NCBI RefSeq assembly: GCF_054482525.1
Contig: NZ_JBTHVG010000003.1
Direction: 5' to 3' (one strand)
DNA from: a plasmid
DNA length: 64,000 nucleotides
Part shown: positions 41,618 through 58,387 of the stretch, one piece after another
Layout of the letters: each line of letters begins with the position of its first letter
Numbering within the stretch: position 1 is the stretch's first letter
The notes under the pieces: generated by a model
The model's input: the letters and a program-made list of their open reading frames with translations, nothing else
The model's database searches: none
Told to the model about the DNA's origin: nothing
Translations under genes and position numbers: made by a program

Positions 41618-44008
41618 TTATGTTTGAGGGAATTCTATAGCAAATGTGGCCGTGCCAGATTGACCACTTACAGCGGGAGTAACGGGATACGTGCGCTCTT
41701 CACCATTACCAAGATCCAGTGACAGCGATTTAGTTTCACCAGGCTGGACCGTAACTCCGGCAACCGTAACGCCGAACTGGGCATTTTTCTGAACAGTCAG
41801 GGTTCCGTTTAACTGTCCGGTAATGATAGAACCGTCCTGACGCCGCAACACACTGGTTCGGATGATGGCCAGCGGCGTGTTGTCCGTTGCTTTCAGTGCT
41901 ACGGCTGTGGCCAGCGTCTTGAGATTATCCAGCATAATCAGATTCGCAGGCTGGTAGGTAAAATTAAGCGTTTTAGTGGTCCGGTTACCTGATTCGTCAA
42001 TAGCCAGTGCCTCCAGATGATACATCTGTCCCGATTCGTCAGTGTTGGGGAAGATTCTGGGGTATTCCGGAATAAAGACATCCTTGGATAACGGCGTGAA
42101 TGCCAGGGTGACCTTTTCAGAGTTAGGTCCACCAGCGAGCTGAAGCGATGTCAGGGAAGCATCCCCAGAGGCATCAGTAACGCTTATGCGAAGGTTCTCA
42201 AGCCCTTTAACCAGTTTTCCTTCTGCGTCTGCGCCATTAAAACTGAACGCGATAACCGGAAGCGTTGAGTCAATTTTCAGCGGTGCATTAAGCGTTTTGG
42301 TTCCGGTGTTTCCAACAAGATCCGTGGCAGAGACGCTAACCACCGTATAATCCCCGTCCGGTAGACCAGCGTATGAGAAGGTGGCGTTTTTGGTTTTATA
42401 ATCGCTTTCACTGACGGTCACAGGCTTCAGCGTGAAAGGTTCCCCCCGGGCATTTTTAAGGGTGGCTTCGAAAACTTTGGTATCCCAGTAGCTGATGTTC
42501 CAGGCGTTGACGCGATCATTATCGGTGGCCGTCATAGTGATTGTCTTGGAGGCCTTGTTTACCTGAGCGACATTAACCACCGGTGGGTTGTTATCCCAGA
42601 TAACCGTAAAATTACCAGCAAGCGCATCGAATATGCTGTCACCATCTTTTCCCGAGTAAAGGTGCAGATACTCAAATCCTTTGTCACTGGTGTAGTTGAA
42701 GTTAACCGTCATCTCGCATGAACTTTGTCCGATAGGTATAGTGCAGAACCAGGCTGCATTTTTTACCGTTCTGAACTTTTGCACGTATGGTCGGGGTTCA
42801 GCGGTTACCTTTATGCGGCTAATGGTGGCGGTTTTAACGCTGATTGAGGCCTGAGTTAACCACTCACTGGTATCACTCCGGTACATCTCTTTAGCCACTA
42901 TCTTCGGGGCTATTTCCATCGCCGGGGCTGGAGTGAAGTTGAGGGAGTTATGATGAATTCGTCTTACTCCTCCTGCCAGAGTCTGGAATTCATGATAAGT
43001 ATCCCCCACATTGGGATATATGTATTTGAAAGTATAAATATTATAAGTGCTATCGGACGTCTGGAAATTCGAGTCCGCCCAGCCATATTTGGAACCGTTA
43101 ACAGCAGTAAAGTCACTTTTTTTCCTTAATACCCGTACGGAAATAGGGTTCTGGAAGACGGTCATGCCAGACTGATAAGTGACCCATGATCCGGTAGTGG
43201 CGTCCTGCACCTGGATGATATCGTCAGGCTTAACCCGATCAATTACGCTTCGGCGGCTTAGTTCGATCCTGTTTCCCGCTTTGTCATAAAGGTAGATCCC
43301 CACTTTATATTCAGAGCGGTTTTCCGGTGCCAGGGCATTGCTGCTTGCGTCGGCGACTTGAACGGTTACGCTACCTTCCACTGTATTAATTTCCGCTGGC
43401 TTTTTACGCTCCACTCCAGCGGCATCGGTTATGAAATATTCAGCATTAGCAAGCCCGGAACCTTTATCACTCAGTCCATTAAAGACCAGTGCCTGGACGC
43501 TGGCGTACTGCATACCGGCTGGTACTGAAGTGAAGATCGCTTCGCTGCCAAAGTTCCACCCGTTTCTCGTATAACTTATGGTACCCGTTGCCGGAGGCGT
43601 TCGGTCAATTGCAAGCGGGTAATCCTGCCGGGAGACCTCCTTCCCTTGCAAGTCGGTAATCACCTCTCTGAGGGTGAAGCTATCTTCTCCCATCGCTGGT
43701 ACGGTCAGAGTCTTGCCGTAATAATCAAAGCCTGTCGAAGATGTGGTACGGTCATCTACGGTAACCAGGCTGCTTTTCGTGCTCCAGATGAGGCTCCCGT
43801 CACTTTTCAGCAGACTGAGCGTAATATAACGGTCCAGACCGGAAATAACGGCAACGTCAAAGCTCGTTACCGGATTAATCCATACGGATGCAGGCGATAC
43901 GGTCTTTTTAACGTTCAGGGTATCTTTAAAGCTGAATTCTGCGATTTCAGCGGAAGCTCCTGCGCTGAAACCTGCAAATGCAATAAGCAGGGCTAGTTTG
44001 ATTTTCAT
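41618..44008 (-). CDS. Secreted Ig-like (Big-domain) surface protein, paralog 1 of 3
   Basis: Signal peptide MKIKLALLIAFAGFSAGASA with AGGAG upstream; repeated D-x-(A/S)GN Ig-like motifs; conserved ISGLDRY N-terminal and LDLGNGEERTYPV C-terminal segments shared with the other two. Confidence 0.6.
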   Translation of the reverse strand: MKIKLALLIAFAGFSAGASAEIAEFSFKDTLNVKKTVSPASVWINPVTSFDVAVISGLDRYITLSLLKSDGSLIWSTKSSLVTVDDRTTSSTGFDYYGKTLTVPAMGEDSFTLREVITDLQGKEVSRQDYPLAIDRTPPATGTISYTRNGWNFGSEAIFTSVPAGMQYASVQALVFNGLSDKGSGLANAEYFITDAAGVERKKPAEINTVEGSVTVQVADASSNALAPENRSEYKVGIYLYDKAGNRIELSRRSVIDRVKPDDIIQVQDATTGSWVTYQSGMTVFQNPISVRVLRKKSDFTAVNGSKYGWADSNFQTSDSTYNIYTFKYIYPNVGDTYHEFQTLAGGVRRIHHNSLNFTPAPAMEIAPKIVAKEMYRSDTSEWLTQASISVKTATISRIKVTAEPRPYVQKFRTVKNAAWFCTIPIGQSSCEMTVNFNYTSDKGFEYLHLYSGKDGDSIFDALAGNFTVIWDNNPPVVNVAQVNKASKTITMTATDNDRVNAWNISYWDTKVFEATLKNARGEPFTLKPVTVSESDYKTKNATFSYAGLPDGDYTVVSVSATDLVGNTGTKTLNAPLKIDSTLPVIAFSFNGADAEGKLVKGLENLRISVTDASGDASLTSLQLAGGPNSEKVTLAFTPLSKDVFIPEYPRIFPNTDESGQMYHLEALAIDESGNRTTKTLNFTYQPANLIMLDNLKTLATAVALKATDNTPLAIIRTSVLRRQDGSIITGQLNGTLTVQKNAQFGVTVAGVTVQPGETKSLSLDLGNGEERTYPVTPAVSGQSGTATFAIEFPQT

Positions 44009-44505
44009 GGGTTGTCTCCTGATCAGGTTCCCCATGATACTTTTTCAGTGTTCGAGATCTTTTCGGGAAAATAGCTAATTTTAATGTTTTTCTTTTCTGC
44101 CCGGCGGGACCTGTTTTGTTCCATTTTTATCAGTGAATGTAATGAGACCGATTCGTCCACTGTTAACAGTGTAAAAGCGAGGTTGAAAGCCAGCTTTGAG
44201 AAGGTTTTCAATAGCTGAAAAAAAATCTTTTTTGAGCATTGGTTTCAAGATGGTTTTCCTTTTATGCCCGGTGCCGCCGGGACGGTGGCATTAAATATAC
44301 GCCATGTAAGTAAATTAATTTTTACCCATTTGATTGTCAATACAAACAAAAAATAAACCATGTTTATTATTTTACCAGCGATGCTATTTTAAAGTCCGTC
44401 TAAAATAAAAAACCAAAAAGTTAAATTTGAAGCCATCCTTCCTAAATTCATTTCTTGCGCATATTAGCCCCTGCTTTAAGTATATAATTTTTGAAAAAGT
44501 TGTCT

Positions 44506-44545
44506 GGAGGTTATTAGCTCGTGCATCTGGATTGTTAATATAAAG
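44506..44545 (+). promoter_or_regulatory. Conserved promoter cassette, plus-strand copy
   Basis: GGAGGTTATTAGCTC then about 17 nt to TAATAT, upstream of the gene at 44569. Confidence 0.45.
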
Positions 44546-44568
44546 CCAACACAGAAAAGGAAAACAAA

Positions 44569-45333
44569 ATGTATAAATTAGTATCTCCTCGTGAACTGAC
44601 TGAGATTATTACCGGTTTACTGCTTAAACCTGAACTCCTTGGTGAGCTGGACTCACCAGAAAAGCATCGGATGTTTATGGCAGATTTAGGCCGGGTGGTG
44701 GCAGAACATTGTGGAGGTCTGGTAAACAGCGTCGTCTTGCCAGGAGCTGAAGTTACAGTGCCGGATGGGTTACCGCTTAACGGCCAGCCAGTACGTTATC
44801 TCGGAATCAAAGAGAGCATCCCTCACCTCCTTGTAGAGCCTGATGCTTCCTTACCTTCGCTCGCTAAAAACGTCTGGATGTATGCAGATCCTGAAGGCTG
44901 GAAAGAACATTTTGGAGCTGAGGAAGACTGCCTTACTCATGAAATGATGCAGCTGTTCCGTAAAGGTATCCAGGCTCTTCAGAAGGAGCATGATACCCCT
45001 GAAATTAGCCTCACACTTCAGGACTGGCGCCTGGAGGAGGAAACACTGAGAGAAGAGGACAGTCAGGCCTATCAGGTCAGCGTTACCGGCCAACATAACA
45101 TCCACTGTGAAGTTGTTAACAAGGAAGGTAACCCCTGTTTTGGTGTCATGTTCGAAATCGATCAGGGTGTGCCTGCCTTACACATCAACACCGGCGGGGA
45201 TATGTTGCTCCACATTCATTGCGCCCATAACGGACTCGTTCTGACCCCTGATGCAAGCGGTCAGCGATTTGAGAAGGCTCCCGTTGACCGCTTCGCTTAT
45301 AACAGCCCATCCCTGCTGTTGTCTGCCGACTAA
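44569..45333 (+). CDS. Hypothetical protein
   Basis: 254 aa; AAAGGAAAA upstream. Confidence 0.5.
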   Translation: MYKLVSPRELTEIITGLLLKPELLGELDSPEKHRMFMADLGRVVAEHCGGLVNSVVLPGAEVTVPDGLPLNGQPVRYLGIKESIPHLLVEPDASLPSLAKNVWMYADPEGWKEHFGAEEDCLTHEMMQLFRKGIQALQKEHDTPEISLTLQDWRLEEETLREEDSQAYQVSVTGQHNIHCEVVNKEGNPCFGVMFEIDQGVPALHINTGGDMLLHIHCAHNGLVLTPDASGQRFEKAPVDRFAYNSPSLLLSAD

Positions 45334-45413
45334 CCAAGGCCAAATCTGAATTGTCCTGTTTAAGTAACCAACCCGCTGCCGCCAGGCGGGTAAATCCTCT
45401 TAATGGAGTTTTA

Positions 45414-46175
45414 ATGCAAATCTCAACTGAAGTTCTGAACGTCTTATCTCGCTGCCGTGCTGAAGGGAACTTTCTTTTCCTGGCCGACCAGCTCGACCGC
45501 AGCATTTATGTTAAGACAAACAAAGTGCTGGAAGCTGCCGGTGGCAAATGGAACCGAAAAGAGCAGGCACATATTTTTACGGCGGATGCAGCTGAGCGTA
45601 TCGAGCAAATCATTCTGACAGGTTCGGTCGACATCCCACGTGATTTGTTCAATTTCTTCCCTACCCCTGAGAATTTAGTCACAGATATGGTTCTACGCGC
45701 TGAACCAGCTGCCGGGGAACGTGTTCTGGAGCCTGAGTTTGGTGATGGCCGCATTCTGAAAGCCTTAAAACTGGCGGCTCCGGATGCATTGATTACCGGG
45801 ATCGAATTGAACGATGAGCGATTCCTTGCAGTGAAGAACGATAGTGTCCTTAGCACAGGGGCCGAGCTGGTGCATACCGACTTTCTTGGGTACCAGCCCG
45901 ATGAAACTTTTGATGTTATCGTTATGAATCCACCATTCCTTAAACGCTCTGACGTTAAACATGTCATGCATGCCATCGCAATGCTCGCTAAGCGAGGTCG
46001 CTTACAGGCCATTCTGTCAGCTGGGGTATTGTTCCGGGAAGACACACTGACAAAAGCGCTCAGGGAGCGAGTCAAACAACTTGGCGGACAAATTTCGCCT
46101 CTTCCGGATGATACATTTAGGGAGTCCGGAACAAAGGTCAAAACAGCCCGCCTTGAAATTGATCTTCGCCGCTAA
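45414..46175 (+). CDS. N6-adenine DNA methyltransferase (gamma-like motif order), orphan
   Basis: Motif I LEPEFGDGRI and motif IV VIVMNPPF; GGAG upstream of the ATG at 45414; homologous to the C-terminal domain of the gene at 62502-64000. Confidence 0.6.
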   Translation: MQISTEVLNVLSRCRAEGNFLFLADQLDRSIYVKTNKVLEAAGGKWNRKEQAHIFTADAAERIEQIILTGSVDIPRDLFNFFPTPENLVTDMVLRAEPAAGERVLEPEFGDGRILKALKLAAPDALITGIELNDERFLAVKNDSVLSTGAELVHTDFLGYQPDETFDVIVMNPPFLKRSDVKHVMHAIAMLAKRGRLQAILSAGVLFREDTLTKALRERVKQLGGQISPLPDDTFRESGTKVKTARLEIDLRR

Positions 46176-46268
46176 CTGACAAGCAACCGGAAAGAAATCT
46201 TAATACGAGTAGCCGGTTAAAGTTACCTGACCGGCTTAACTGACTAAATCAATAAAGAGTGAACAGAA

Positions 46269-46532
46269 ATGACGCATACTGCCGTTTCTCAGGCTAATAG
46301 TGCTTTGCAGCTACCCACGCTGGAGCATGTCTACGCACTTCTGAAAGCAAATTGTAAACCTGACCGCTTTGACGGGCGTGACGGACCCGTGTGGGGCCAG
46401 GAATACTCGTGGAATCTGGCAAAAGATCGCTTACAGGATCTGGAGAAATACGGTAAGGCATATGTCTCCCGTCATGAAGACCGTATGGGGGAAGGATTTA
46501 GTTTTGGTCCTGACCTGTTAATTATTCGCTAA
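46269..46532 (+). CDS. Small hypothetical protein
   Basis: 87-aa ORF. Confidence 0.4.
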   Translation: MTHTAVSQANSALQLPTLEHVYALLKANCKPDRFDGRDGPVWGQEYSWNLAKDRLQDLEKYGKAYVSRHEDRMGEGFSFGPDLLIIR

Positions 46533-46552
46533 CGCTCTTAAGGCCTGATGAT

Positions 46553-47164
46553 ATGGTAAGCACAACTGGAAAAAATATGTTTTCAAAGCCTATGACCACT
46601 TTCACACCAGAACGTATTGAACAAATTTTGGAATTTTCCGAGGGTAGTAACCCAAGCGAAGCAATGAGTCTTAGAGCTGACGAAGTTGCTGTACTGGCAC
46701 GTATTGGAAAGGCAGTTATGTCGATTGCGCCTGTTTATCAGTGCGAGTTTTGCCACCATGACGCAACCGGGCAACTTCAGTGGCACTGGGAAGATGTGAA
46801 CAAAGCTTTTTATGATAAATACGATCCAGACAGACGCGGAAGACGTCGAATCCTCTATACCGCCCCGCCGATGCCTTTAGTTTCGGCTGACCTGCTTAAC
46901 ATGGCTTCATCTGCTATTGAAGACTTGCTCACTAACAAAGACAGAAGTGGTGCGGGAATGTGGAATGACATTCCAGAACAGCTACGACGCGCAGCAGAAC
47001 TGGTAATGGATAATAGCCGGGCCGCTGAAATAGAAGCGATGCTGATGCGTCTTTATGTAGAATGTGACACCGGTGAGCGCAGAGGCAACGGCAGTCAATC
47101 TGGCGTAGCAATGCCTTCGTGGCAAACCGTTGAAGAGGCACGTGTGTTGCTGGGGGTGAAATGA
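46553..47164 (+). CDS. Hypothetical protein
   Basis: 203-aa ORF. Confidence 0.45.
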   Translation: MVSTTGKNMFSKPMTTFTPERIEQILEFSEGSNPSEAMSLRADEVAVLARIGKAVMSIAPVYQCEFCHHDATGQLQWHWEDVNKAFYDKYDPDRRGRRRILYTAPPMPLVSADLLNMASSAIEDLLTNKDRSGAGMWNDIPEQLRRAAELVMDNSRAAEIEAMLMRLYVECDTGERRGNGSQSGVAMPSWQTVEEARVLLGVK

Positions 47165-47628
47165 TGCAGTTCTCGCCAGGGCAGTTTGTAATTCACAACA
47201 AGAAGCGCCTTGCGGAACGAAGGTAGACGTACTGACTGAGGTTCACTCCCCTCTCGACTGGTGGCGTAATACCGCCAGGTTTTGATTCATATATGCCGTC
47301 CGTTAACGCATTTATATCTGTCATACCTAATTTATCCTGATTCTTTTTTACACAAAGTAAAAGCATCACTTAATGCGATATGTGGATGCCGATAGTTTCA
47401 GGCTAATGTTATAAGTTTTGCAATCGTTGCCAGTTTGGATACCACAGCAATGTCAGATGTAATTCCAAAAAGAAAGATTTACGTCCTGAACGCACAATAA
47501 GGTTTGTCGAAAGGCAAATTATAGATTTGTAATTTCGAGCACCATATGGAGAAGTTTTTTATACTTTTACGAACATAGTGACCTTTAGGAAAAGCTTAAA
47601 ATAACACCAAACCTAAAGGGGAATAAGA

Positions 47629-50049
47629 ATGAAACATCTCGCTTTTATTACTGCTGTAGCCGGACTCGGTATGTCTGTTCAGGCCCCAGCTCAGATATAT
47701 GAATCGGCCTTTAAGGACACGAACGGTATTGAGATCCACGCCCCGTCTTCTCGTCTTATGCTTAATCCGGCATCACCGGTAACTTTGACACTTATTTCAG
47801 GTCTTGATCGTTTCGTTAATGTCAAAGTCACGAAAGACACTGGAACTGTCATTCTTAATACTACGACTACACGGACGGGTGTATCAGACCGACTAACAGC
47901 TGCTGACGGTAGTGAGTTCTACGGCAAAAAAGTAACTTTGCCTGCTTTGGGTGAAGGCAAATTTGTCGTTCAGATAAACGTGTTAGATCTCAATCAGAAG
48001 CCTGTAGCGACCTATAACTATAACTGGCTAATTGATGTCACCCCTCCAGCGGCAAATGCTCTTACCGCTAATACTGGTTCTGGCTCTACCGCTGGTGACG
48101 TGTGGAAGCTTGGATTAGAGGCAACGGGGCAGTATGACTTCACCTCTTCGGGCGTAAGTGATGCAAATGGTATTGATAAGGGCCTAATATATATTTACAG
48201 GCAGGACGGTAGCCTCTACAGCACTACACAGATGCAGTATGACGTATCCGGCCAAAAGATGTACCACACTTACTCTAAGAATTCAGTTAAGGGAACCGGA
48301 ATACCAGACAGCAACCTGGATGAAGACTTTACTGCAAAAGTTGTTATCTTCGATAACGCAGGTAATAGCCGAACGCTGCCAACTCAAAAATTTCGCTACG
48401 ACAACACGCTGGGTGAGATGACACTGTGGGCCGTTCATGATCCAAATACGTCTTCCAGCGTCGTACCCGGGGTTTCTAATTATCCGGCTTACAAAGCCGG
48501 TATGGTCGTTAACGAAAACCCTATTCGATTAGTCTACCGGATCCCAAAATCTAACTACCGTGCTTATTCAGAAGGTGGGCTTCAGTTCATCAATCAATAT
48601 TCCGCCCCCAAAGAGATAGCTGTAGACAGCACTTATGCTTATGTTGAAATGACTCTTCCCTATGGCTCAATTAATGGGGATATGGCTCGTATGGCGAACT
48701 TTGGCCAGTGGGGAGGGTATTATCCGTCATACAGCCTCGTTCTAAACCCATCTGCAAACCAAACGCCTGCATTTGCGGGTACCTGGGTAGATTTCCTCGA
48801 TGATAAGGGGAACTGGGTTAAGTGGAAGGATTTTGAGAGTGTGGCTTCATCACGACTGCCAATTAAAATTTCCCGACTTCGTTTTAACGTTGAAGCCCGG
48901 CCCTTTGCACAGGAGATCGGCGGTAAGGCGACCTGCACCATTCCGGCAGGAAAAACCTCGTGTGAAGCGCCTGAGACGTTTGATATGGCCTTGGGTACCC
49001 AGGGCTACAATAGAATCCTTTACTTCGTTCGCAGCATCAGCAATCCCATTTTGCGGTCTGAGCAATGGATTATGACACGCTGGAACAATAAACAACTGCC
49101 GGTAATAAACTCGATATCATATGACGAGACTAACAAGCAGCTGGATGTACTGGCGTCACTTGAAGGCGATGGTAACTGGTTCGACTCGGTCTCATTGAGG
49201 GAATTTTATCTTTCCGATAAGAACACCGGTACCCGGATGTCACCAACAGGCGTAATCAAATCTCGTATCTCAGGTAACTACACGATTGCTTATGATTTAT
49301 CCCGTCAGTCTGAAGGAAAATACAACGTTGAGGTCAACATCAGGGACTTCTTCCAGAACCAGACCAATAAAACTTTCGGAGAAATTGCTCTGGATAACAC
49401 TCCTCCGACAGTGGCCATAACATTCGACGGAAAGCCGGTAAAAGACGATACGGTAGTGTACGGCCTGGAGAACCTCAGGATCGCTCTGGCAGATAATCTG
49501 ACAACCCCGAGGATAACCCGTCTTCAGCTCGTAGGTGGCCCCACAGCTGATAACGTTGAGCTTACGTGGTCACCGGCAGGCAAAGATACATACATGCCTG
49601 AGTATCCGAGGCTGTTCCCAAATTTCGAACCATCTGAAAATTATTCAATTAGCGTAACAGTTGCCGATAGTCAGTCGAATACCAAAACCTATACTCAGAA
49701 GTTCAGTTATCTACCGAATAACCTTGTGCAGTTACATAATCTACGCACATTGTCGGTCAGTTCACCTCTCAAAACGACAGATGGCGTACCACTTGCGTAC
49801 CTGTCCACTAACGTTCTGCGTAAGACAAATGGAGAAATTGCTAAAGGGGTCCAGAACGCAACGCTGACTGTGCGGAAGGATGCAGCCTTCGGTATTAAAT
49901 TTAATGGGGCACAGGCGGCTCCAGGCGAGTCAGTTGAGGTGCAAATAGATATGGGCCAGGGGGATAATCTTCTGTTACCCGTTTATCCTTCCGAAAATGG
50001 GAAAGTTGGCACCTCAGAATTCATGATTCAGATCGACGAGTTGAAGTAA
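47629..50049 (+). CDS. Secreted Ig-like (Big-domain) surface protein, paralog 2 of 3
   Basis: Signal peptide; ISGLDRF; D-x-AGN repeats; C-terminal IDMGQGDNLLLPVYP. Confidence 0.6.
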   Translation: MKHLAFITAVAGLGMSVQAPAQIYESAFKDTNGIEIHAPSSRLMLNPASPVTLTLISGLDRFVNVKVTKDTGTVILNTTTTRTGVSDRLTAADGSEFYGKKVTLPALGEGKFVVQINVLDLNQKPVATYNYNWLIDVTPPAANALTANTGSGSTAGDVWKLGLEATGQYDFTSSGVSDANGIDKGLIYIYRQDGSLYSTTQMQYDVSGQKMYHTYSKNSVKGTGIPDSNLDEDFTAKVVIFDNAGNSRTLPTQKFRYDNTLGEMTLWAVHDPNTSSSVVPGVSNYPAYKAGMVVNENPIRLVYRIPKSNYRAYSEGGLQFINQYSAPKEIAVDSTYAYVEMTLPYGSINGDMARMANFGQWGGYYPSYSLVLNPSANQTPAFAGTWVDFLDDKGNWVKWKDFESVASSRLPIKISRLRFNVEARPFAQEIGGKATCTIPAGKTSCEAPETFDMALGTQGYNRILYFVRSISNPILRSEQWIMTRWNNKQLPVINSISYDETNKQLDVLASLEGDGNWFDSVSLREFYLSDKNTGTRMSPTGVIKSRISGNYTIAYDLSRQSEGKYNVEVNIRDFFQNQTNKTFGEIALDNTPPTVAITFDGKPVKDDTVVYGLENLRIALADNLTTPRITRLQLVGGPTADNVELTWSPAGKDTYMPEYPRLFPNFEPSENYSISVTVADSQSNTKTYTQKFSYLPNNLVQLHNLRTLSVSSPLKTTDGVPLAYLSTNVLRKTNGEIAKGVQNATLTVRKDAAFGIKFNGAQAAPGESVEVQIDMGQGDNLLLPVYPSENGKVGTSEFMIQIDELK
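47928..47938. promoter_or_regulatory. Palindrome copy inside the CDS of Ig-like paralog 2
   Basis: AAAAAAGTAACTTTG. Confidence 0.35.
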
Positions 50050-50152
50050 CTACCCGGAGCCGACAGTAAAACTGACGGCTTCAATTTTACTGCCCTCCTC
50101 GACTCCGATCAGCCAGTACGTCTTCAGAGATTCGCAAGGAAGAACCGAAAGA

Positions 50153-50163
50153 AAAGTTACTTT
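50153..50163. promoter_or_regulatory. Palindrome copy 3' of Ig-like paralog 2
   Basis: AAAAGTTACTTTA. Confidence 0.45.
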
Positions 50164-50290
50164 AATCGTACGTTTCCAGCGATGCTTTCAAAAGACAATG
50201 CATACTCGTTGATTACGACAATGGGAGTGAGTGTCGAACCCCTTGAGTAAGGATACCTGGTAAATATACAGCCCCGGGGATTCTCTTCCT

Positions 50291-50700: not shown

Positions 50701-50759
50701 ATCGGAGAACCACGGCAGCCTGGCGGCTGCAAATTGAAAACCGCCCCGGTTCGTCCTGT

Positions 50760-52410
50760 TGTTGCCGCACGCCCCGCAGAATATGTATGCTCTGAGGACC
50801 TGTTTTATTAAGGACTCATCCCCTTATGTTGACCCGCAAAAGTATCGATACAGTTCTGCTCTCTGTTGGTGCTGAGAAGCTCTCACAACGAGAATGGGAC
50901 TGGATGAAAATGCTCAAACCCATGGACCCACCACCTGCGATGGTGACGACCTCCATCCTGAAGCGCCGTGGCGATACAGCAGCCCTTACCCTGCTACAGG
51001 ATACCGGGGTTTAATCCATCCTCATGTTGTCCGGTTTTACTCCCCGCCCTCTGAAACGTCTGTTCACAGCCAACCAGTGCTGGACGTCCTTCCTGGATGC
51101 GGGCGGTCTGCGCGATATCGAGGTTGAAGCCGTCACCAAAATGCTGGCCTGCGGCACACGGATACTGGGTGTAAAAGAGTTCGGGTGTGATAACCCGGAC
51201 TGTCAGCACGTAAAGTACCTGACCAACTCATGCGGCAGCCGTGCCTGCCCGTCCTGCGGAAAGAAGGCCACAGACCTGTGGACAGCAACACAGCTGAATC
51301 GTCTTCCTGACTGCGACTGGGTACATCTGGTCTTCACCCTGCCGGACACGCTGTGGCCGGTGTTCGAAAGCAACCGCTGGCTGCTGAATGACGTGTGCCG
51401 TCTGGCGGTGGAGAATCTGCTGTATGCCGCCCGAAAACGGGGGCTGGAACCCGGTATCTTCTGCGCCATCCACACGTATGGCCGTCGTCTCAACTGGCAT
51501 CCGCATGTACATGTGTCTGTAACCTGTGGAGGTCTGAATAAGCATGGTCAGTGGAAAAAGCTGAGCTTCCTGAAAGACGCGATGCGTTCACGGTGGATGT
51601 GGAATATGCGGCAGCTGCTTCTGAAAGCGTGGTCAGAGGGGATGGCAATGCCGGAGTCGTTGTCACATATCACGACGGAATCACAGTGGAGAAGCCTGGT
51701 GCTGAAATCCGGCGGAAAATACTGGCATGTGTACATGTCGAAGAAGACAGCCGGAGGGCGGAATACGGCACGCTACCTGGGTCGTTATCTGAAGAAGCCA
51801 CCAATAGCGGCTTCCCGACTGGCTCATTACAACGGAGGGGCAAGCCTGAGCTTCCGTTACCTGGACCACAAAACGGGAGAAACGGCGACGGAAACGCTGA
51901 CACAGCGTGAGCTGGTCGCGAGGCTGAAACAGCACATCCCGGAGAAGTTTTTTAAGATGGTGAGGTACTTCGGGTTCCTTGCCAACCGTGTGTGTGGAGA
52001 GAAGCTGCCGCAGGTGTACCGTGCACTGGGGATGGATAAACCGGAACCAGTGGCGAAAGTGTGCTATGCACAAATGGTGAAACAGTTCCTGAGTCGTGAC
52101 CCGTTCGAATGCGTGCTGTGTGGCTGCCGGATGGTATACCGCCGGGCCATTGCGGGGCTGAATGTATCAGGGCTGAAGAAAAACGCGCGGGATATCAGTC
52201 TACTGAGGTATATGCCGGCCTGACACAGGCTAAGTGTGCCCGGGAATCGGTGAAAGTATAAAAAACAGCCTGTTACGGTATAAAAATCGACCATACAGAG
52301 AGGGAAACCACCGGAGTGGTGGGAAAAGCAGAAAGGCTCACGTGGCATAAGGCGTGGACAATGGTATCGACTGGTTTTTCAATTTCCTATACGTCAAGCC
52401 TCTTCGTCCT
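50760..52410 (+). mobile_element. IS91-family (rolling-circle) insertion element; boundaries approximate
   Basis: IS91-like transposase gene plus a putative oriIS-like end (tttttcaatttcctatacgtcaagcc, about 52373-52400); the element sits between two blocks of iteron-like repeats. Confidence 0.4.
51024..52223 (+). CDS. IS91-family transposase (HUH Y2 type)
   Basis: N-terminal Zn-binding Cys cluster CGSRACPSCGKK and HUH motif WHPHVHVSV; an in-frame TAA separates it from the upstream ORF 50826-51014, which may belong to the same gene or to an orf121-like gene. Confidence 0.7.
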   Translation: MLSGFTPRPLKRLFTANQCWTSFLDAGGLRDIEVEAVTKMLACGTRILGVKEFGCDNPDCQHVKYLTNSCGSRACPSCGKKATDLWTATQLNRLPDCDWVHLVFTLPDTLWPVFESNRWLLNDVCRLAVENLLYAARKRGLEPGIFCAIHTYGRRLNWHPHVHVSVTCGGLNKHGQWKKLSFLKDAMRSRWMWNMRQLLLKAWSEGMAMPESLSHITTESQWRSLVLKSGGKYWHVYMSKKTAGGRNTARYLGRYLKKPPIAASRLAHYNGGASLSFRYLDHKTGETATETLTQRELVARLKQHIPEKFFKMVRYFGFLANRVCGEKLPQVYRALGMDKPEPVAKVCYAQMVKQFLSRDPFECVLCGCRMVYRRAIAGLNVSGLKKNARDISLLRYMPA

Positions 52411-52422
52411 ACAGGTTTAAGC

Positions 52423-53660
52423 TGACAATGGTAGTGATTGGATGATCTCACTACTGTTGTCACTCAGTTCTTTGAGCGGACCCTTCCCTCGGTTGGTCGG
52501 CATTAACAACGGTAGTGACTCGATTGGCTCACTGCCATTGTCATCGTGTAAATGACGTACCTTATCAGCTCAGCTGAAAGCAATGACAACGGTAGTGACT
52601 CTAATTGCTCACTGCCATTGTCGTCGTGTCTATTGAGAGCCTTATCAGTGCACCTGAAAAGCAATGACAACGGTAGTGATTCTAATGGCTCACTACCGTT
52701 GTCACCGTGTGTATTGAGAGGATGGTCCACTTAACTGGACGTATATGACAATGGTAGTGACTTTAATAGCTCACTACCATTGTCGGTGTGTGAATTGAGA
52801 GGATGAGCAGCTCAGCTGTACGTCCATGACAATGGTAATGACTTAATGAGCTCACTACCGTTGTCACCCTGTTAATTAAGAGGCTCATCTGCTCTTCTGG
52901 AAGGCTATGACAACGGAAGTGACTTGCTGGGCTCACTGCCATTGTCGCCGTATGAATTGAGAGGATCATCCGCTCTTCTGGATGGCAATGACAACGGTAA
53001 TGACTTAATAGGCTCACTACCATTGTCACCCTGTGAATTGAGAGGATGATCTGCTTAACCAGACGGCCATGACAACGGTAGTGACTTTCTGGGCTCAATA
53101 CCGTTGTCACCCTGTGAGTTAAGAGGTTGACCCGCTCTACTGGACGGCCATGACAACGGTAGTCACTTTCTGGGCTCACTACCGTTGTCGCCATATAGAA
53201 TGAGAGGAGCATCAGCTCAACTGAACGGCAATGACTACAGTAATGAGCTGGATGAAGCATAACCATTGACATCTGGCCCAACCGGAAGCCGTATTCGCCA
53301 ATCCAATCGAGATTCACAATGGCCGTGACTCGCCGCATTAAGTTCCGGTGTCCTCCCAAAGCTGAACGCACACTCGGAGGACAATGACAATGCCAGTAAG
53401 GTACACATCATTACCATTGTCACTATAGCTACCAGAGAAGCCGGGATTTGAATGTCGATGGTAGTGAGTGGGTCAACTCACTGCCATTGTCACCCCGTTA
53501 CGATATTTTCCGTTGGATGTACTGGCCAATGAAGTAAAGCGTAGAAACCGGGTGTTAACAGGTGACTCAGGAGAAAGCGTTGAATTTCGCAATCTCGATC
53601 TACATAGGGTGGTAGAGAACAATGACAACGGTAATGACTTTTGACTCATTACCGTTGACG
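52423..53660. repeat. Tandem array of about 15 units (~80 bp each), each containing an inverted pair of iteron-like 15-mers
   Basis: tgacaacggtagtgac...ctcactaccgttgtca repeated at roughly 80-bp spacing; lies 3' of repA, comparable to incA-type copy-control iteron arrays. Confidence 0.7.
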
Positions 53661-53734
53661 TGAAAGAGCGGGCTGGGACTAACGAAAATCGAAGAAGTAA
53701 TTTAGCACCCGGAGCCTAAACCGCCGGGTTAACT

Positions 53735-54823
53735 TTAGCTGGCGTTGCTGTTCTTTTTCTGGCTTCGAAGACTACGAATATAGCGCAGTTCTTCAGCGGT
53801 TAAATCATGGACGGTAAGAACATCATCGCCGTCAATCGGGTCAGCTGGTGGGCATAACTCACCTTCTAAAACAGAAGACCCTGAGTTCTCTTCTTCATCT
53901 TCAACCACTTCTAAAGGAGGCTGAGTATTGTTCAAATTCAGATCGGGATCCCGCTTATGAATCTGGAAGTATACTTTTCCGTCTTTCTTAATTTCGGTGT
54001 ACTTGAGGTATCCTATCGATGCCAACTCTTCAAGAGCCTTTCTCACGGTAGCATTCTGACTATTTGCTCGTGTTTTGAGGTTCAGACGATTTTTCAGCCG
54101 AGTAAGGGATATCGGTATAGGATTTGGCGGTAATGACTCTATGAACGTATAGAGAGCCTGGGCGCTTTCCTTCTTGGCCAACTCCTTAATTGCCTTCAGC
54201 TGCATCAAAACCTTATGATCGTATTGATAGAGCTCGAAAATCTTAGGATCAACCTGAAGGACAACCTGATCTGATTCCGGGTCTAACAGGGCAGACTGTA
54301 CCAGATGCGTTGTATAGACTTTGGACGAGTTATTACTGGTGAACGACAAGGTAACGGATGCTAACCTGCGTAAGGAGGCGTCTATACGTTTTCTGGACGC
54401 TGTAGATGAGCGATAATTTTCAGGCGTACATAGCTTGAGGAATTCAGTGAATTTTAAGCTTATCGTGTCATTGTTAATCGGATGATTGGCATAGGTTCGA
54501 ATGATGCCCATCCACGTCTTAAAATCTACTGACATATTAAGACGCTCACCGACAATTGAAATATTGGTGAACCCCTCGCTCTCCATTAAAGAGAGCGTCT
54601 GTAACTCTTTCGTTGCGTCAAAGCCAACCGTTTTATATTCCCGATTTTGACGCCCCACACTCTTTGGTGATGGGACGAACAGCCCGAGCCGCATCAAAGC
54701 AATAGACTGCACCGTACGGTTGCTGTTAGGACGCAAAATGATGTCTTTACCTGATTCTTTCTCTCTAACAGAGAAAGCCCTGGTGACCAGGTCCTGCTGC
54801 TCAGTATCTTTCTCTTTAGTCAT
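53735..54823 (-). CDS. repA: Replication initiator RepA (RepFIB/P1 RepA family, iteron-binding)
   Basis: LMRLGLFVP, DFKTWMGII, LVQSALLDPESDQVVLQVDPKIFELYQYDHKVLMQLKAI and ESAQALYTFIESLP match the RepFIB RepA pattern; iterons on both sides. Confidence 0.8.
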   Translation of the reverse strand: MTKEKDTEQQDLVTRAFSVREKESGKDIILRPNSNRTVQSIALMRLGLFVPSPKSVGRQNREYKTVGFDATKELQTLSLMESEGFTNISIVGERLNMSVDFKTWMGIIRTYANHPINNDTISLKFTEFLKLCTPENYRSSTASRKRIDASLRRLASVTLSFTSNNSSKVYTTHLVQSALLDPESDQVVLQVDPKIFELYQYDHKVLMQLKAIKELAKKESAQALYTFIESLPPNPIPISLTRLKNRLNLKTRANSQNATVRKALEELASIGYLKYTEIKKDGKVYFQIHKRDPDLNLNNTQPPLEVVEDEEENSGSSVLEGELCPPADPIDGDDVLTVHDLTAEELRYIRSLRSQKKNSNAS

Positions 54824-54892
54824 AATAAGTTATCACTGAATGTGTAAACAGATTGGTGAATAGTAAGCCCCAGCGAACTCTATGTCACTGGA

Positions 54893-55575
54893 TGGATCAT
54901 TGTGATGATCCATATCTGTGCATAAGTTCTACCTAAAAAAACGACTCCACTCATTAAAACTTGGCAAAAACTCTTTGCATACAATGACCTGCAACTCTTA
55001 TCAACAACGGATCAGATCAAGTTAAAAAGATCTAATGAAAAGTCACTACTATTGTCGCTCTGATCACTACTGATGTCAAAAAACTCATTACCAACGTTAT
55101 AATAATCACTACTAATGTCAAAATAATCACTACTGTTGTCACTGATCACGTCTCAGGCCTTGTGCCGTCTGGCCTGGAGGCAGCGGGGATCTCTTTTGAT
55201 CTATCAGGAACACTAAGGTACTAATTATTGGAACTACCTTGTGGAAAATGGGGATAAATAAATGCTTAGTTCTTATACAGGTCTCAACTTGCCTCCCTGA
55301 TAAAAACTGTCGTCAAAGCTAAATCGCAGCCACAGGCATTTTCGGTGGATAAATTTTTGAGAAATAGAAGCATACATGCAGACTCGTGTCGCAAGTAATT
55401 GAAAGTAATGATTTATTTAAATAATGCGAGTCACCTTACCTCACAGTGGAAGTTTAAGTCTAACCTCACTACCATTGTCACTTAAAATCATTACCAACGT
55501 CGAAATAGTCTCTACCATTGTCTTTTAAGTCACTCCCGTTGTCACTTATGTCGCTACTGTTGTCAGTGACAATGC
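54893..55575 (-). promoter_or_regulatory. Putative replication origin and repA control region
   Basis: GATC cluster (54893-55040); five direct ~21-bp iterons TCACTACnnTTGTC (55043-55145); DnaA-box-like GGTGGATAA (55345-55353) within an AT-rich stretch; five more iterons (55466-55575). Confidence 0.55.
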
Positions 55576-55930
55576 TCCAGCCCAGTAACCATGCGGCCTA
55601 CAGCGTACCGGGATCTTCTTTGTACTCTCTGGCACCTTTGGGATCATTTATTGGATCTACATGAGGGATAAAATCTTTTGACGATTTCGTAGTGCAGTTA
55701 TACCAGCGACTTAGCAAGACAAAAGCTGCAATTTAGTGACGAGTTACTAGTCTGCCCAACAAGAGCAATGCAGAGAAGATATGTGGTGAAATGACCATGG
55801 TAGTGAGTCTAATCACTACCATGGTCCGCAGTAAGCGTTACTTACGCAATGAACGTCGGACTGATTTGCAACAACATGGGCTACGGCGCATCAGAAGGCG
55901 GCCGTTGTGCTTCAGCAAAACAGCCCTGCT

Positions 55931-58387
55931 TTATTTTAATTCTTCAATGTTAATCATGAACTCAGATCTGCCAGTAAGGCCGGATACAGCAGGGAAAATA
56001 GGAAAGCTACGGCTGTCCCCGAGCCCCAAATCCAGTTGAAGCTCTTTGCTTTCACCTGGCATCGCAGAAACGCCATTTACAGTCACGCCGAATGCAGCGT
56101 CCTTACGGACAGTAAGCACTGCGTCCTGAAGCCCTGTAGCGATTGAACCATCCTTTTTACGCAGCTGGCTGGCATACAGAACAGCCAGAGCAGTATTGTC
56201 AGATGTTTTGAGAGAAGCATTGACAGCTAAGGTTTTCAGATTCTCTAGCCTGACGAGATTGTTTGGAAGGTAGTTAAATTCGACTGAGCTTTCTTTAACG
56301 TTGTTCATCTCATCTTTGGCCTGAACTGTGAGAGTGTATGTTTCGCCTTCATTAAGAGACGGAAAGATCTTGGGATAATTAGGTGCATACAGGTTGTTTC
56401 CCAGATTCACCCAAGACAATTCCACCGCATCAGAAACAGGGCCACCGCGAAGAGTCATACGGCTTAAGGATGGTTTAGTTAGAGCATCGGTGAGCTGTAT
56501 ACGGACGTTCTCCAGCCCATATACTGTTACGTTTTTGCTGATCGGTTTTCCTTCGTAGCTAATACTTACAGATGGTGCTGTATTATCAACGACAACTGTT
56601 TGATAAGGGAGGTTACCGGTATTGTTGAATGTATCTTGGGCATTAATCACCACGTTATAACTGCCTTCTGGTACCTCTTTCATGTTGAACTCATACGTGT
56701 AGTTCCCAGACGCCATATTTCTACCTGTTTGTTTGCCGGTTACGCTTATTTCTGCGTTGTTACGGTTTTTATCTGACAACCAAACTCGATTTACATAAAC
56801 ATGGTCGAAATATGAACCATCTCCAGGTTGATTCACGTAAACCTGGAGAATGTTGGTGGTTTCATTGTAATCAAATCCAGTGACGGAGGGACCCAGTGTA
56901 TGCCAGGCTATATTCTCCCATATAGGGGCAAAGAAGGTTGCTTCGGTGGTTGACCTTACTTCATAGCCACTATGAAGATAACCGGTAGTGCCATTTATAA
57001 TATCCTGGGGCAAAGAGACGGTACAGGTTGTTGAGCCAGCTGGAATACTGCATGTTGCTCCGCCAGTGATTTTTTGATCATATGGCCTGGCCTGTACATT
57101 GAATCGGATATTAGTAAGTTTTATAGGCATATCAGATGCCTTGAACAGGTTCCAGTTTACGCTGTTGAACCATGTTCCATCAGCCTTTTGTCGTTCTATG
57201 GGTGAACTTCCCCAAGCCGGACTCTTTACAGAGGCAGGATCCCAGTTGAGCCAGCTGGCATACTGACCAAGATCTCCTCCAGACCATTGATATGTATTCA
57301 CAGGTCTATAGTAGTTTCCATCTAAGGCACCCTGTGGCAGCTTAACTTCCACGTAGACATAGGTGGCATCTTCGGAAAGGACCTGTACTCCGCCATAGTT
57401 ATTGGTAATGCTCATGCCACCATTTCGATATGGCTTCCAGTTAGTTCTTGGGATACGTATAACCAACTTGTAGGGGTTTTCCAGCACTGTAAGGCCTCGT
57501 TTAAACGGGACGTATCCCGAAGAAATGCCGGGTACAACACTGGTGCTTACACGTGAGTCATGAACTGCAAATGGCGTAAATTCTCCCATTTGATCGTCAT
57601 ATAAAAACCGCTGGGGAGGAATGTTAAGCGTATTTCCTGCCAGGTCCGTAACGATGAAATTGAAGGTGAATTCTTCATCAAGATCACTTGAGGGCATGCC
57701 AGCCTGGGTGTTCATATCTTTAATCCACGGATAGACCGCACGTTTATTGGCTGTGTCATAACTCAGGTTATTGTCGGAGACCACAGAACCATTACTTCGT
57801 TTAATGACAAGACGGATCTTGTCAATTCCACTAGCATCCTCAATACCGTCTGCAAATATAGAAAACTGGCCACTACCGCCTCGGCCCAACTCCCAAAGTG
57901 GCCCAGAAAGTACCATGTCGTAACCTGCGTTTTGACTCGGATAAATACTCTTATAGCGTGGAGGAGTTGTATCAACGATGAAATGATAAGTAGATGTGCT
58001 CACTACAGTCTGGCGAATATCCAGAGTTTCATTGACTACAGTAAAGGTCCCTTCTCCGAGCGCCGGTAGAACCATATCCTTTCCATAGTATTCTGTTCCA
58101 TCGGCAGCAACGATACGATCTGCAACGCTCGTTTTGGTCGAGACGGAGGAATACATAACCTTTTTATCGCTGTCTCGTGTGACCGTCACTCGCTCGTACC
58201 GATCAAGACCCGATATCAAGTTCAGAGTCAAAACACCAGCGGGATTAAGATATGTTTGTGTTGCAGGTTTGATATTCCGAACAGCCTTATTGGTATCTGT
58301 AAATGAGTAGCTAAATACCTGAGCATGTGCCGAAGATACAGTAGCAAGGGCAGTTGCAACCATGCAGCCAATTAGAGTTTTACGCAT
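55931..58387 (-). CDS. Secreted Ig-like (Big-domain) surface protein, paralog 3 of 3
   Basis: Signal peptide; ISGLDRY; D-x-AGN repeats; C-terminal LDLGLGDSRSFPIFP; GGAG upstream of ATG. Confidence 0.6.
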   Translation of the reverse strand: MRKTLIGCMVATALATVSSAHAQVFSYSFTDTNKAVRNIKPATQTYLNPAGVLTLNLISGLDRYERVTVTRDSDKKVMYSSVSTKTSVADRIVAADGTEYYGKDMVLPALGEGTFTVVNETLDIRQTVVSTSTYHFIVDTTPPRYKSIYPSQNAGYDMVLSGPLWELGRGGSGQFSIFADGIEDASGIDKIRLVIKRSNGSVVSDNNLSYDTANKRAVYPWIKDMNTQAGMPSSDLDEEFTFNFIVTDLAGNTLNIPPQRFLYDDQMGEFTPFAVHDSRVSTSVVPGISSGYVPFKRGLTVLENPYKLVIRIPRTNWKPYRNGGMSITNNYGGVQVLSEDATYVYVEVKLPQGALDGNYYRPVNTYQWSGGDLGQYASWLNWDPASVKSPAWGSSPIERQKADGTWFNSVNWNLFKASDMPIKLTNIRFNVQARPYDQKITGGATCSIPAGSTTCTVSLPQDIINGTTGYLHSGYEVRSTTEATFFAPIWENIAWHTLGPSVTGFDYNETTNILQVYVNQPGDGSYFDHVYVNRVWLSDKNRNNAEISVTGKQTGRNMASGNYTYEFNMKEVPEGSYNVVINAQDTFNNTGNLPYQTVVVDNTAPSVSISYEGKPISKNVTVYGLENVRIQLTDALTKPSLSRMTLRGGPVSDAVELSWVNLGNNLYAPNYPKIFPSLNEGETYTLTVQAKDEMNNVKESSVEFNYLPNNLVRLENLKTLAVNASLKTSDNTALAVLYASQLRKKDGSIATGLQDAVLTVRKDAAFGVTVNGVSAMPGESKELQLDLGLGDSRSFPIFPAVSGLTGRSEFMINIEELK

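What the first reader, a model, noticed from the sequence alone, without database searches (positions are those of the whole stretch)
41618..58387. Three paralogous ~800-aa secreted Ig-like proteins surrounding the replicon
The proteins at 41618-44008 (minus), 47629-50049 (plus) and 55931-58387 (minus) share signal peptides, an N-terminal ISGLDR(Y/F) block, multiple D-x-(A/S)GN Ig-like repeats and a conserved C-terminal (L/I)D(L/M)G-G...P(V/I)(Y/F)P segment. Paralogs 2 and 3 are closest. No usher, autotransporter barrel or secretion partner is apparent nearby. Plasmid-encoded Big-domain proteins have been linked to conjugation in IncHI-type plasmids, but that link is from recollection and unverified here.
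Basis: partly seen in the sequence, partly recalled or inferred. Interest (0 to 1): 0.7.

Follow-up and report, generated by a model that had tools for sequence, protein, structure and literature searches.

The report
Three RSP2-like conjugation proteins, IncHI2
The three genes are real, intact paralogues on an IncHI2 resistance plasmid and belong to the family of RSP2, a secreted Ig-like protein that the related plasmid R27 needs for efficient conjugation. They are new members of a known kind, but they contradict a published statement that IncHI2 plasmids lack rsp2-type genes.

Summary
The window is an IncHI2 plasmid, 100% identical to p8C59-NDM over the 18 kb tested. It holds three intact genes of 796, 806 and 818 aa around repHI2.

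All three have a Sec-type signal peptide, the Pfam architecture DUF4165–Big_3_2–Big_3_3, and a conserved C-x8-C pair. AlphaFold models of Ig-1 and Ig-3 are all-beta (pLDDT about 91); Ig-2 was not modelled.

They are full-length homologues of R27 RSP2 (39, 32 and 35% identity; E 1e-174 to 5e-107). In R27, RSP2 is exported in a T4SS- and RSP-dependent way, binds flagella and the H-pilus, and raises conjugation about 100-fold at 25 °C (PMC8730810). That paper states that IncHI2 plasmids lack rsp2; its hit table holds only hits of at least 85% identity.

- **Paralogue lineages:** the IncHI backbone carries at least four (RSP2, Ig-1, Ig-2, Ig-3). R27 has lost the Ig-2 and Ig-3 types to deletion and IS30.
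- **Partner RSP:** it is encoded elsewhere on IncHI2 plasmids (83.5% identity). It is distantly related to this family, lies next to four such genes in an Aeromonas plasmid, and is fused to such a module in IncC plasmids.

Function in IncHI2 is inferred, not shown. Verdict: new members of a known kind, moderate interest.

The parts
41618..44008 (-). Ig-1: 796-aa RSP2/Ig-1-clade protein (86.4 kDa precursor). It occupies the position that rsp2 has in R27.
   Evidence: ORF and start codon. Pfam: DUF4165 at 43601-43957, Big_3_2 at 43238-43597, Big_3_3 at 41921-42391. 39% identity to R27 RSP2 over the full length, E 1e-174. Groups with RSP2 at NJ bootstrap 98. AF2 pLDDT 91.2, all-beta. Found in 1048 PLSDB plasmids.
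43949..44008 (-). Ig-1 predicted Sec signal peptide (aa 1-20, MKIKLALLIAFAGFSAGASA|E)
   Evidence: Rule-based check. Helix then a low-pLDDT stretch at residues 11-19 in the AF2 model.
47629..50049 (+). Ig-2: 806-aa paralogue (88.6 kDa)
   Evidence: Pfam: DUF4165 at 47689-48042, Big_3_2 at 48043-48405, Big_3_3 at 49273-49743. 32% identity to RSP2, E 5e-107. 86% identity to the C-terminal remnant of the R27/pHCM1 pseudogene. 75% identity to the intact p8025 orthologue. Found in 1113 plasmids.
47629..47691 (+). Ig-2 predicted signal peptide (aa 1-21, ...VQAPA|Q)
55931..58387 (-). Ig-3: 818-aa paralogue (89.9 kDa)
   Evidence: Pfam: DUF4165 at 57965-58330, Big_3_2 at 57596-57964, Big_3_3 at 56237-56707. 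35% identity to RSP2, E 2e-122. 81-82% identity to the R27 (IS30-truncated) and pHCM1 (intact) orthologues. AF2 pLDDT 90.7. Found in 1123 plasmids.
58322..58387 (-). Ig-3 predicted signal peptide (aa 1-22, ...SSAHA|Q)
   Evidence: Rule-based check. Helix at 2-15 then low pLDDT at 15-22.
53735..54823 (-). repHI2 replication initiator (context: the replicon between Ig-2 and Ig-3)
   Evidence: Annotation of the identical plasmid
52414..53280 (.). Array of about 11 repeats of 81 bp. Each holds an inverted pair of the 14-bp iteron TCACTACCATTGTC (context).
55040..55549 (.). Two groups of 21-bp-spaced iterons upstream of repHI2 (context)
52..4940 (+). Tra1 genes: MobH relaxase and TraD coupling protein. 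The window starts inside the transfer region of the same plasmid (context). RSP and the Tra2 pilus genes are outside the window.

Best explanation
The three genes encode Sec-exported, rod-like chains of roughly seven Ig/FN3-like beta-sandwich domains (my estimate from Pfam hits and model secondary structure). They belong to the RSP2 family of accessory conjugation proteins found on MOBH / H-pilus plasmids.

**Shown here.** Homology to RSP2, shared architecture, signal peptides, strong constraint on the protein sequences, and co-occurrence with RSP and the Trh type IV system.

**Inferred by homology to R27 RSP2.**
1. Each protein crosses the inner membrane through Sec. It folds in the periplasm, where the conserved C-x8-C pair could form a disulfide; the Trh and Tra regions encode a DsbC/HtdT isomerase.
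2. It is released to the cell surface or medium only when the plasmid's type IV apparatus (TrhC, TrhH, pilin TrhA) and the large protein RSP are present.
3. Outside the cell it binds the H-pilus and flagella. This lowers motility and stabilises donor-recipient contact, which raises transfer, especially in liquid at about 25 °C.

**Proposed module logic.** The 800-aa proteins are 'head' modules that work with the RSP 'tail'. The evidence is that RSP2 co-precipitates with RSP in R27, the two are adjacent in an Aeromonas plasmid, and they form one polypeptide in IncC plasmids. The three IncHI2 copies are old paralogues that are probably partly redundant.
For: **Plasmid identity.** The window is an IncHI2A, MOBH, MPF_F plasmid.

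**Homology to RSP2.**
- Full-length BLASTP to R27 RSP2 gives 39, 32 and 35% identity, with E 1e-174, 5e-107 and 2e-122.
- The Pfam architecture is identical in all three proteins and in RSP2.

**Export signals.** A signal peptide followed by a conserved mature N-terminus, and the C-x8-C pair, are present in every one of 23 family members examined.

**Fold.** The AF2 models of Ig-3 and Ig-1 have pLDDT 90.7 and 91.2. They contain only beta-sandwich domains, with no barrel or enzyme domain.

**Selection.** Synonymous sites are saturated against the IncHI1 and p8025 orthologues, while dN is 0.12-0.34. The genes occur in about 1050-1120 plasmids.

**Link to RSP.**
- RSP is present at 83.5% identity on IncHI2 plasmids, including one that matches the 18-kb query region at 100%.
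- The IncC 1828-aa protein consists of an RSP2-type module (aa 5-797, E 1.6e-133 to Ig-3) followed by an RSP tail (aa 822-1819, E 6e-63). It lies between the pilin gene traA and dsbC/traC.
- Aeromonas pSS332-218k has four tandem copies followed by an RSP homologue.
- tblastn finds the two families in nearly the same set of plasmids: 3058 against 2962 records, with the same genera.

**Experimental basis for RSP2.** PMC8730810 and PMC6764697.
Against: - No experiment exists for any of the three IncHI2 proteins.
- Identity to the characterised RSP2 is only 32-39%. Ig-2 and Ig-3 belong to a different clade from RSP2.
- The IncA/C relative affected conjugation but not motility, so activities differ within the family.
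- The genes lie outside the Tra regions.
- R27 conjugates with its Ig-2 and Ig-3 types inactivated, so those two lineages are dispensable in at least one backbone.
- The published export model (a type IV substrate) does not mention signal peptides. The two-step route proposed here is my inference.
- Signal peptides were judged by rules, not by a trained predictor.
Confidence: 0.7

Rival explanations
1. They are general surface adhesins or biofilm factors that help the host bacterium colonise surfaces or animals. They are carried by the plasmid as cargo and have no role in transfer.
Against: The full-length ~800-aa relatives whose genomic context was examined all lie on MOBH-type plasmids, and the plasmid hits of this family and of RSP cover nearly the same records. 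Chromosomal copies were not excluded. In IncC the module is fused to RSP within the tra operon. The characterised relative RSP2 has a conjugation phenotype. There is no anchoring domain (barrel, LPXTG or lipobox) for a cell-bound adhesin.
Confidence: 0.12
2. They are shields. By coating the H-pilus and flagella, the secreted proteins block pilus-specific and flagellotropic phages, or limit unproductive contacts. The conjugation effects would then be secondary.
For: RSP and RSP2 bind both flagella and pili. Multi-copy, diverging paralogue sets are typical of loci in arms races.
Against: There is no direct evidence. Orthologues show strong constraint on the protein sequence rather than diversification. 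The R27 Δrsp2 phenotype was measured without phage.
Confidence: 0.05
3. They are redundant relics. Only one family member is needed, and the extra copies in IncHI2 are functionless duplicates on the way to decay, as in R27.
For: R27 and pHCM1 carry an internally deleted Ig-2 type, R27 an IS30-truncated Ig-3 type, and p8025 an internally deleted rsp2. Some IncHI2 plasmids have IS insertions in one of the genes.
Against: All three are intact in the window. They were retained through a divergence long enough to saturate synonymous sites, with 75-82% protein identity for Ig-2 and Ig-3. Each is present in more than 1000 plasmids, most at 99% DNA identity or higher.
Confidence: 0.08

Closest known systems
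RSP2 (ORF R0055) of IncHI1 plasmid R27, 794 aa (Hüttener et al. 2022, PMC8730810)
   Same: Full-length homology at 32-39% identity. Same DUF4165–Big_3_2–Big_3_3 architecture, signal peptide, C-x8-C pair and conserved C-terminal 200 aa. Same type of plasmid (MOBH, H-pilus, RSP-encoding). Ig-1 occupies the same backbone position and orientation, between the Ig-2 gene and the Zn-finger/RelE pair.
   Different: None is a strict orthologue. Ig-2 and Ig-3 form a separate clade. Ig-1 is the sister lineage of RSP2, and both lineages co-exist in p8025. There are three intact copies instead of one. No functional data exist for these three.
RSP (ORF R0009) of R27, 1432 aa, 'IncHI-type conjugal transfer protein RSP' (PMC6764697)
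   Same: A secreted Big protein with a signal peptide and a C-x8-C domain. RSP aa 138-499 align to the family profile over Ig-3 aa 383-711 (hhalign probability 97.6%, E 4e-12). It interacts with RSP2 and is needed for RSP2 release.
   Different: RSP lacks DUF4165 and Big_3_2 and has a specific tail of about 900 aa. Pairwise BLASTP to Ig-3 is insignificant. It is encoded in Tra2, outside the window.
ALG87338.1-type protein of IncA/C (IncC) plasmids, about 1830-1843 aa
   Same: Its N-terminal 800 aa form a complete RSP2-family module, 33% identical to Ig-3. The pKAZ3 protein is secreted and needed for conjugation at 25 °C.
   Different: It is fused to an RSP-like tail and present as a single copy. 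It lies inside the tra operon between traA and dsbC/traC. It had no effect on motility.
Giant Big-domain adhesins such as Salmonella SiiE
   Different: SiiE-type adhesins are type I secretion substrates without an N-terminal signal peptide and are made of many near-identical repeats (general knowledge). These proteins have a Sec signal and roughly seven dissimilar domains.

Membership tests
RSP2 family (DUF4165–Big_3 secreted proteins of MOBH plasmids) | Significant full-length sequence similarity to R27 RSP2 | tested here: met
   39, 32 and 35% identity over about 790-850 aligned columns; E 1e-174, 5e-107 and 2e-122
RSP2 family (DUF4165–Big_3 secreted proteins of MOBH plasmids) | Domain architecture DUF4165 + Big_3_2 + Big_3_3 in a protein of about 800 aa | tested here: met
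   Pfam hits in all three proteins and in RSP2 itself
RSP2 family (DUF4165–Big_3 secreted proteins of MOBH plasmids) | Extracytoplasmic: N-terminal signal peptide, all-beta Ig-like fold | tested here: met
   AXA sites and hydrophobic cores. AF2 models of Ig-1 and Ig-3 with pLDDT about 91, beta-sandwich hits only. Rule-based signal-peptide check only; Ig-2 not modelled.
RSP2 family (DUF4165–Big_3 secreted proteins of MOBH plasmids) | Encoded on a conjugative plasmid that also encodes RSP and an H-type (MPF_F/MOBH) transfer system | tested here: met
   Typing of the identical plasmid. Tra1 genes lie in the window. rsp is present at 83.5% identity in IncHI2 plasmids, including NZ_CP038454.
RSP2 family (DUF4165–Big_3 secreted proteins of MOBH plasmids) | Release to the medium depends on TrhC, TrhH, TrhA and RSP | not testable with these tools
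   Known only for R27 RSP2
RSP2 family (DUF4165–Big_3 secreted proteins of MOBH plasmids) | Binds flagella and the conjugative pilus; deletion lowers conjugation about 100-fold at 25 °C and raises motility | not testable with these tools
   Known only for R27 RSP2
Strict orthologue of rsp2 (R0055) | Same lineage as R27 rsp2 in a gene tree, with no co-existing rsp2 copy in related backbones | tested here: not met
   Ig-2 and Ig-3 fall in another clade. Ig-1 is sister to RSP2 (bootstrap 98), but p8025 carries both an Ig-1-type gene (61% identity) and an internally deleted rsp2 (82-92% to R27 RSP2).
RSP (R0009) family | Full-length similarity to the 1432-aa RSP, including its C-terminal tail | tested here: not met
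   BLASTP is insignificant. Only RSP aa 138-499 align at profile level.
Autotransporter, intimin/invasin or chaperone-usher adhesins | Outer-membrane beta-barrel translocator domain, or an adjacent usher and chaperone | tested here: not met
   No such Pfam domain. The models contain sandwiches only. Neighbouring genes are a methyltransferase, IS elements, the replicon and small unknown ORFs.

The most novel reading that the evidence does not exclude
The multi-copy sets of 800-aa proteins are interchangeable, specialised 'heads' that dock through their conserved C-terminal 200 aa onto one common RSP 'tail' or the H-pilus. IncHI2 has three copies, and Klebsiella and Aeromonas plasmids have four. 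Each paralogue's divergent N-terminal and central domains would recognise a different surface, such as a flagellin type or a recipient envelope. The paralogue repertoire would then set mating efficiency and recipient range, in the way TraN variants do for F-like plasmids. Loss of Ig-2 and Ig-3 types in S. Typhi IncHI1 plasmids would reflect a narrowed niche.
Probability: 0.18. Interest if true: 0.6.

Novelty: new member of a known kind. Interest (0 to 1): 0.4.

Why it matters
IncHI2 plasmids are major carriers of mcr-1 and other resistance genes. RSP-type surface proteins have been proposed as antibody, nanobody and vaccine targets against plasmid spread (PMC11268884).

The literature says IncHI2 plasmids have RSP but no RSP2. 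In fact they carry three intact RSP2-family genes, conserved in more than 1000 sequenced plasmids. This has three consequences:
- It adds three candidate exposed targets.
- It predicts redundancy, which would mask single-knockout phenotypes in IncHI2.
- Together with the IncC fusion and the Aeromonas gene cluster, it gives a simple evolutionary model (head module plus RSP tail) for an accessory layer of H-pilus conjugation that is still poorly understood.

It is a useful correction and extension, not a new kind of system.

Tried and rejected
- **A fourth paralogue in the window?** The 794-aa ORF at 29796-32180 is a PAPS-reductase-family protein and is unrelated.
- **Secretion partner nearby?** NCBIfam and PHROGs scans of nine neighbouring ORFs found only a DNA methyltransferase, IS2, a Zn-finger protein and unknowns.
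- **Promoter and terminator scan of 41-59 kb.** Counts equal chance, so it says nothing about operon structure.
- **NCBIfam on the three proteins.** No family was found; one sub-threshold hit to PorU is noise.
- **PDB sequence search with the family profile.** Only a weak SiiE match at E 0.0014.
- **Whole-chain Foldseek.** TM-scores are 0.1-0.2 because the model is a flexible multi-domain rod. This shows the fold class only.
- **Numerical dN/dS.** Not obtainable because synonymous sites are saturated between IncHI2 and IncHI1/p8025 orthologues. Only the qualitative conclusion is used.
- **Ig-1 as a simple orthologue of rsp2.** Rejected after p8025 was found to hold both lineages.
- **Fragments of one disrupted gene.** Rejected.
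Full report
**1. What is in the sequence**

The region 41000-59000 is 100% identical to IncHI2 plasmids such as p8C59-NDM (NZ_MT407547; typed IncHI2A, MOBH, MPF_F, conjugative). There the three ORFs are annotated only as 'Ig-like domain-containing protein'.

The ORFs are:
- Ig-1, 41618-44008 (-), 796 aa
- Ig-2, 47629-50049 (+), 806 aa
- Ig-3, 55931-58387 (-), 818 aa

It has an AGGAG 8 nt upstream and is the annotated start.

The proteins align end to end. Ig-1 is 27-28% identical to the other two, and Ig-2 is 41% identical to Ig-3.

repHI2 (53735-54823) lies between Ig-2 and Ig-3. It is flanked by an array of about eleven 81-bp repeats (52414-53280) and by two groups of 21-bp-spaced iterons (55040-55549).

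**2. Nature of the proteins**

Each N-terminus has the n-, h- and c-regions of a Sec signal peptide with an AXA site after residue 20, 21 or 22. The same layout recurs in all 23 relatives inspected. It is followed by a conserved mature N-terminus, (Q/E)-(V/I)-(Y/F)-E-x-x-(F/Y)-x-D-T, and by an invariant C-x8-C pair in the middle of the protein.

Pfam finds DUF4165, Big_3_2 and Big_3_3 in all three.

AlphaFold2 models built with 66-69 homologues have mean pLDDT 90.7 (Ig-3) and 91.2 (Ig-1); Ig-2 was not modelled. After the signal helix they contain only beta strands, arranged as roughly seven sandwich domains by my reading of the secondary structure.

**3. Identity: the RSP2 family**

R27 (IncHI1) encodes RSP2 (ORF R0055, 794 aa), which has DUF4165 and Big domains. 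According to Hüttener et al. 2022 (PMC8730810):
- It is found in the periplasm and in the cell-free medium.
- It is released only if TrhC, TrhH, TrhA and, in part, RSP are present.
- It co-precipitates with RSP.
- It binds flagella and the conjugative pilus.
- Its deletion lowers liquid conjugation about 100-fold at 25 °C.

I fetched R27 and compared it. Ig-1, Ig-2 and Ig-3 are 39, 32 and 35% identical to RSP2 over the full length (E 1e-174, 5e-107 and 2e-122). My own Pfam scan of RSP2 gives the same three domains.

[quoted passage not shown] Its Table S2 lists only hits of 85-99.9% identity. That search could not have seen relatives at 32-39% protein identity. At the protein level the statement does not hold.

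**4. Orthology and history**

The R27 region is syntenic with the window:

DUF4942 gene – Ig gene – replicon – Ig gene – Ig gene – … – Zn-finger gene – RelE/ParE

The flanking Zn-finger and RelE proteins are 65% and 90% identical between the two plasmids.

| IncHI2 gene | Counterpart in IncHI1 plasmids | Evidence |
|---|---|---|
| Ig-3 | 81-82% identical gene. Truncated by IS30 in R27, intact (818 aa) in pHCM1. | |
| Ig-2 | 86% identical over the C-terminal 197 aa of a pseudogene. About aa 349-607 are deleted in R27; pHCM1 carries the same annotated C-terminal fragment. | |
| Ig-1 | Sits at the rsp2 position and orientation, but is only 39% identical to RSP2. | |

In a neighbour-joining tree (768 columns, 100 bootstraps), Ig-1 groups with RSP2 at 98%. 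Ig-2 and Ig-3 form a separate clade at 100%, together with four Klebsiella paralogues.

Plasmid p8025 (NZ_KP899803) carries four family genes: an intact Ig-1-type gene (61% identity), Ig-2 and Ig-3 orthologues, and an internally deleted rsp2 at the rsp2 position (82-92% to R27 RSP2). Ig-1 and RSP2 are therefore distinct lineages, and the IncHI backbone has held at least four paralogues.

In the four backbones examined, at least one member of the RSP2/Ig-1 clade is intact. This is a small sample.

Against the IncHI1 and p8025 orthologues, synonymous sites are saturated while dN is 0.12-0.34. The proteins have therefore been under strong constraint.

Megablast finds Ig-1, Ig-2 and Ig-3 in 1048, 1113 and 1123 PLSDB plasmids, from Escherichia, Salmonella, Enterobacter, Klebsiella and Citrobacter.

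**5. The wider family and the link to RSP**

A profile search of 1.84 billion cluster representatives found 273 at E ≤ 1e-30. These are mostly stand-alone proteins of about 800 aa, or proteins of about 1830 aa that carry the module at their N-terminus. Named members come from Yersinia, Rahnella, Vibrio, Enterovibrio, Aeromonas and Pseudoalteromonas.

The genomic arrangements vary:
- Klebsiella pKp6001 has three tandem copies plus a fourth beyond parAB.
- Aeromonas pSS332-218k has four tandem copies downstream of traD and DUF4400. They are followed directly by a 1399-aa RSP homologue (27% identity over the full length, E 1e-131).
- In IncC pSH111_166 a single 1828-aa gene lies between the pilin gene traA and dsbC/traC. 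Its aa 5-797 are an RSP2-type module (33% to Ig-3, E 1.6e-133). Its aa 822-1819 match RSP aa 372-1405 (E 6e-63). This is the same type as the pKAZ3 protein shown to be secreted and needed for conjugation at 25 °C.

RSP itself has a signal peptide and a C-x8-C pair. Its aa 138-499 align to the family profile, covering Ig-3 aa 383-711, at 97.6% probability.

RSP is present at 83.5% identity in IncHI2 plasmids, including one that matches the 18-kb query region at 100%. The plasmids hit by the RSP2 family (3058) and by RSP (2962) have almost the same genus profile.

Fusion, adjacency, co-occurrence and the published co-precipitation all point to one functional unit.

**6. Mechanism proposed**

Shown here: homology, architecture, export signals, selective constraint, and the genomic link to RSP and the Trh system.

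Inferred:
1. Sec export is followed by periplasmic folding. A disulfide in the C-x8-C domain is plausible, because the IncC tra operon and the IncHI Tra2 region examined (R27, p8025) encode DsbC/HtdT.
2. Release is coupled to H-pilus biogenesis and to RSP.
3. The proteins then bind pilus and flagella, which favours mating-pair formation at low temperature.

The most conserved part among paralogues is the C-terminal ~200 aa: 45-60% identity, against 30-44% elsewhere (profile conservation). In the IncC fusion this part abuts the RSP tail. I take it as the likely docking end and the N-terminal and central domains as the variable, specificity-bearing end. This last point is speculative.

**7. Rivals**

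- **Generic host adhesins:** unlikely, given the tie to MOBH plasmids and to RSP.
- **Phage shields:** no evidence.
- **Decaying duplicates:** contradicted by conservation, although R27 shows that the Ig-2 and Ig-3 types can be lost.

**8. Verdict**

The genes are new, uncharacterised members of a known, recently described family.

The useful new points are:
- a correction of the 'no rsp2 in IncHI2' statement;
- the four-lineage history of the IncHI backbone;
- signal peptides throughout the family, which neither RSP paper mentions;
- the head/tail relationship with RSP.

Interest is moderate.

Noticed in passing
window 50707-52394: A 1688-bp IS91-family element (transposase at 51024-52223) lies 20 bp from the RepHI2 81-bp iteron array. 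In the otherwise identical p8C59-NDM the same element sits at the equivalent of window 45707, inside the methyltransferase gene. Most other IncHI2 plasmids listed lack it in the 41-59 kb region.
   Followed up: partly
window 52763-53371 (-): This 202-aa GTG ORF lies entirely within the 81-bp iteron repeat array and has no family hit. It is probably not a gene.
   Followed up: partly
window 58791-60110: An IS2 (IS3 family) begins about 403 bp upstream of the Ig-3 start codon, so the native upstream region of Ig-3 is cut at that point. Some other IncHI2 plasmids have IS3-family, IS26, ISApl1 or IS91-family insertions within one of the three genes.
   Followed up: partly
window 45351-46175 (+): An orphan DNA methyltransferase lies between Ig-1 and Ig-2 and resembles domains of large phage and plasmid methyltransferases (PHROG 9133, 15406). 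It is flanked by three small or unknown ORFs (44569-45333, 46269-46532, 46553-47164) that are absent from the R27 counterpart region.
   Followed up: partly
window 29796-32180 (-): A 794-aa phosphoadenosine-phosphosulfate-reductase-family (DndC-like) protein, conserved in IncHI1 pHCM1 and, in shorter form, in the Aeromonas plasmid. It may be a DNA-modification or defence function of the backbone.
   Followed up: no
window 40367-41183 (-): A RelE/ParE-family toxin gene (90% to R27) is preceded by a 156-aa CxxC zinc-finger protein (65% to R27). No canonical antitoxin is annotated.
   Followed up: partly
window 47629-58387; L002, L005, L006: Ig-2 and Ig-3 are transcribed convergently towards the replicon. 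The same convergent layout around a replication or partition region is seen in R27, pHCM1 and Klebsiella pKp6001. Its significance is unknown.
   Followed up: no
window 41618-44008: Among IncHI2 plasmids Ig-1 has two DNA allele groups: 609 records at 99% or higher and 439 at 95-99%. Ig-2 and Ig-3 are at 99% or higher in almost all records. Protein identity of the second Ig-1 group is still about 99.2%, so the differences are mostly synonymous.
   Followed up: partly
L010:8887-14373 (IncC pSH111_166); L008:15110-28906 (Aeromonas pSS332-218k): The IncC 1828-aa Big protein is a fusion of an RSP2-type module and an RSP-type tail. The Aeromonas plasmid has four tandem RSP2-type genes followed by an RSP homologue.
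   Followed up: yes
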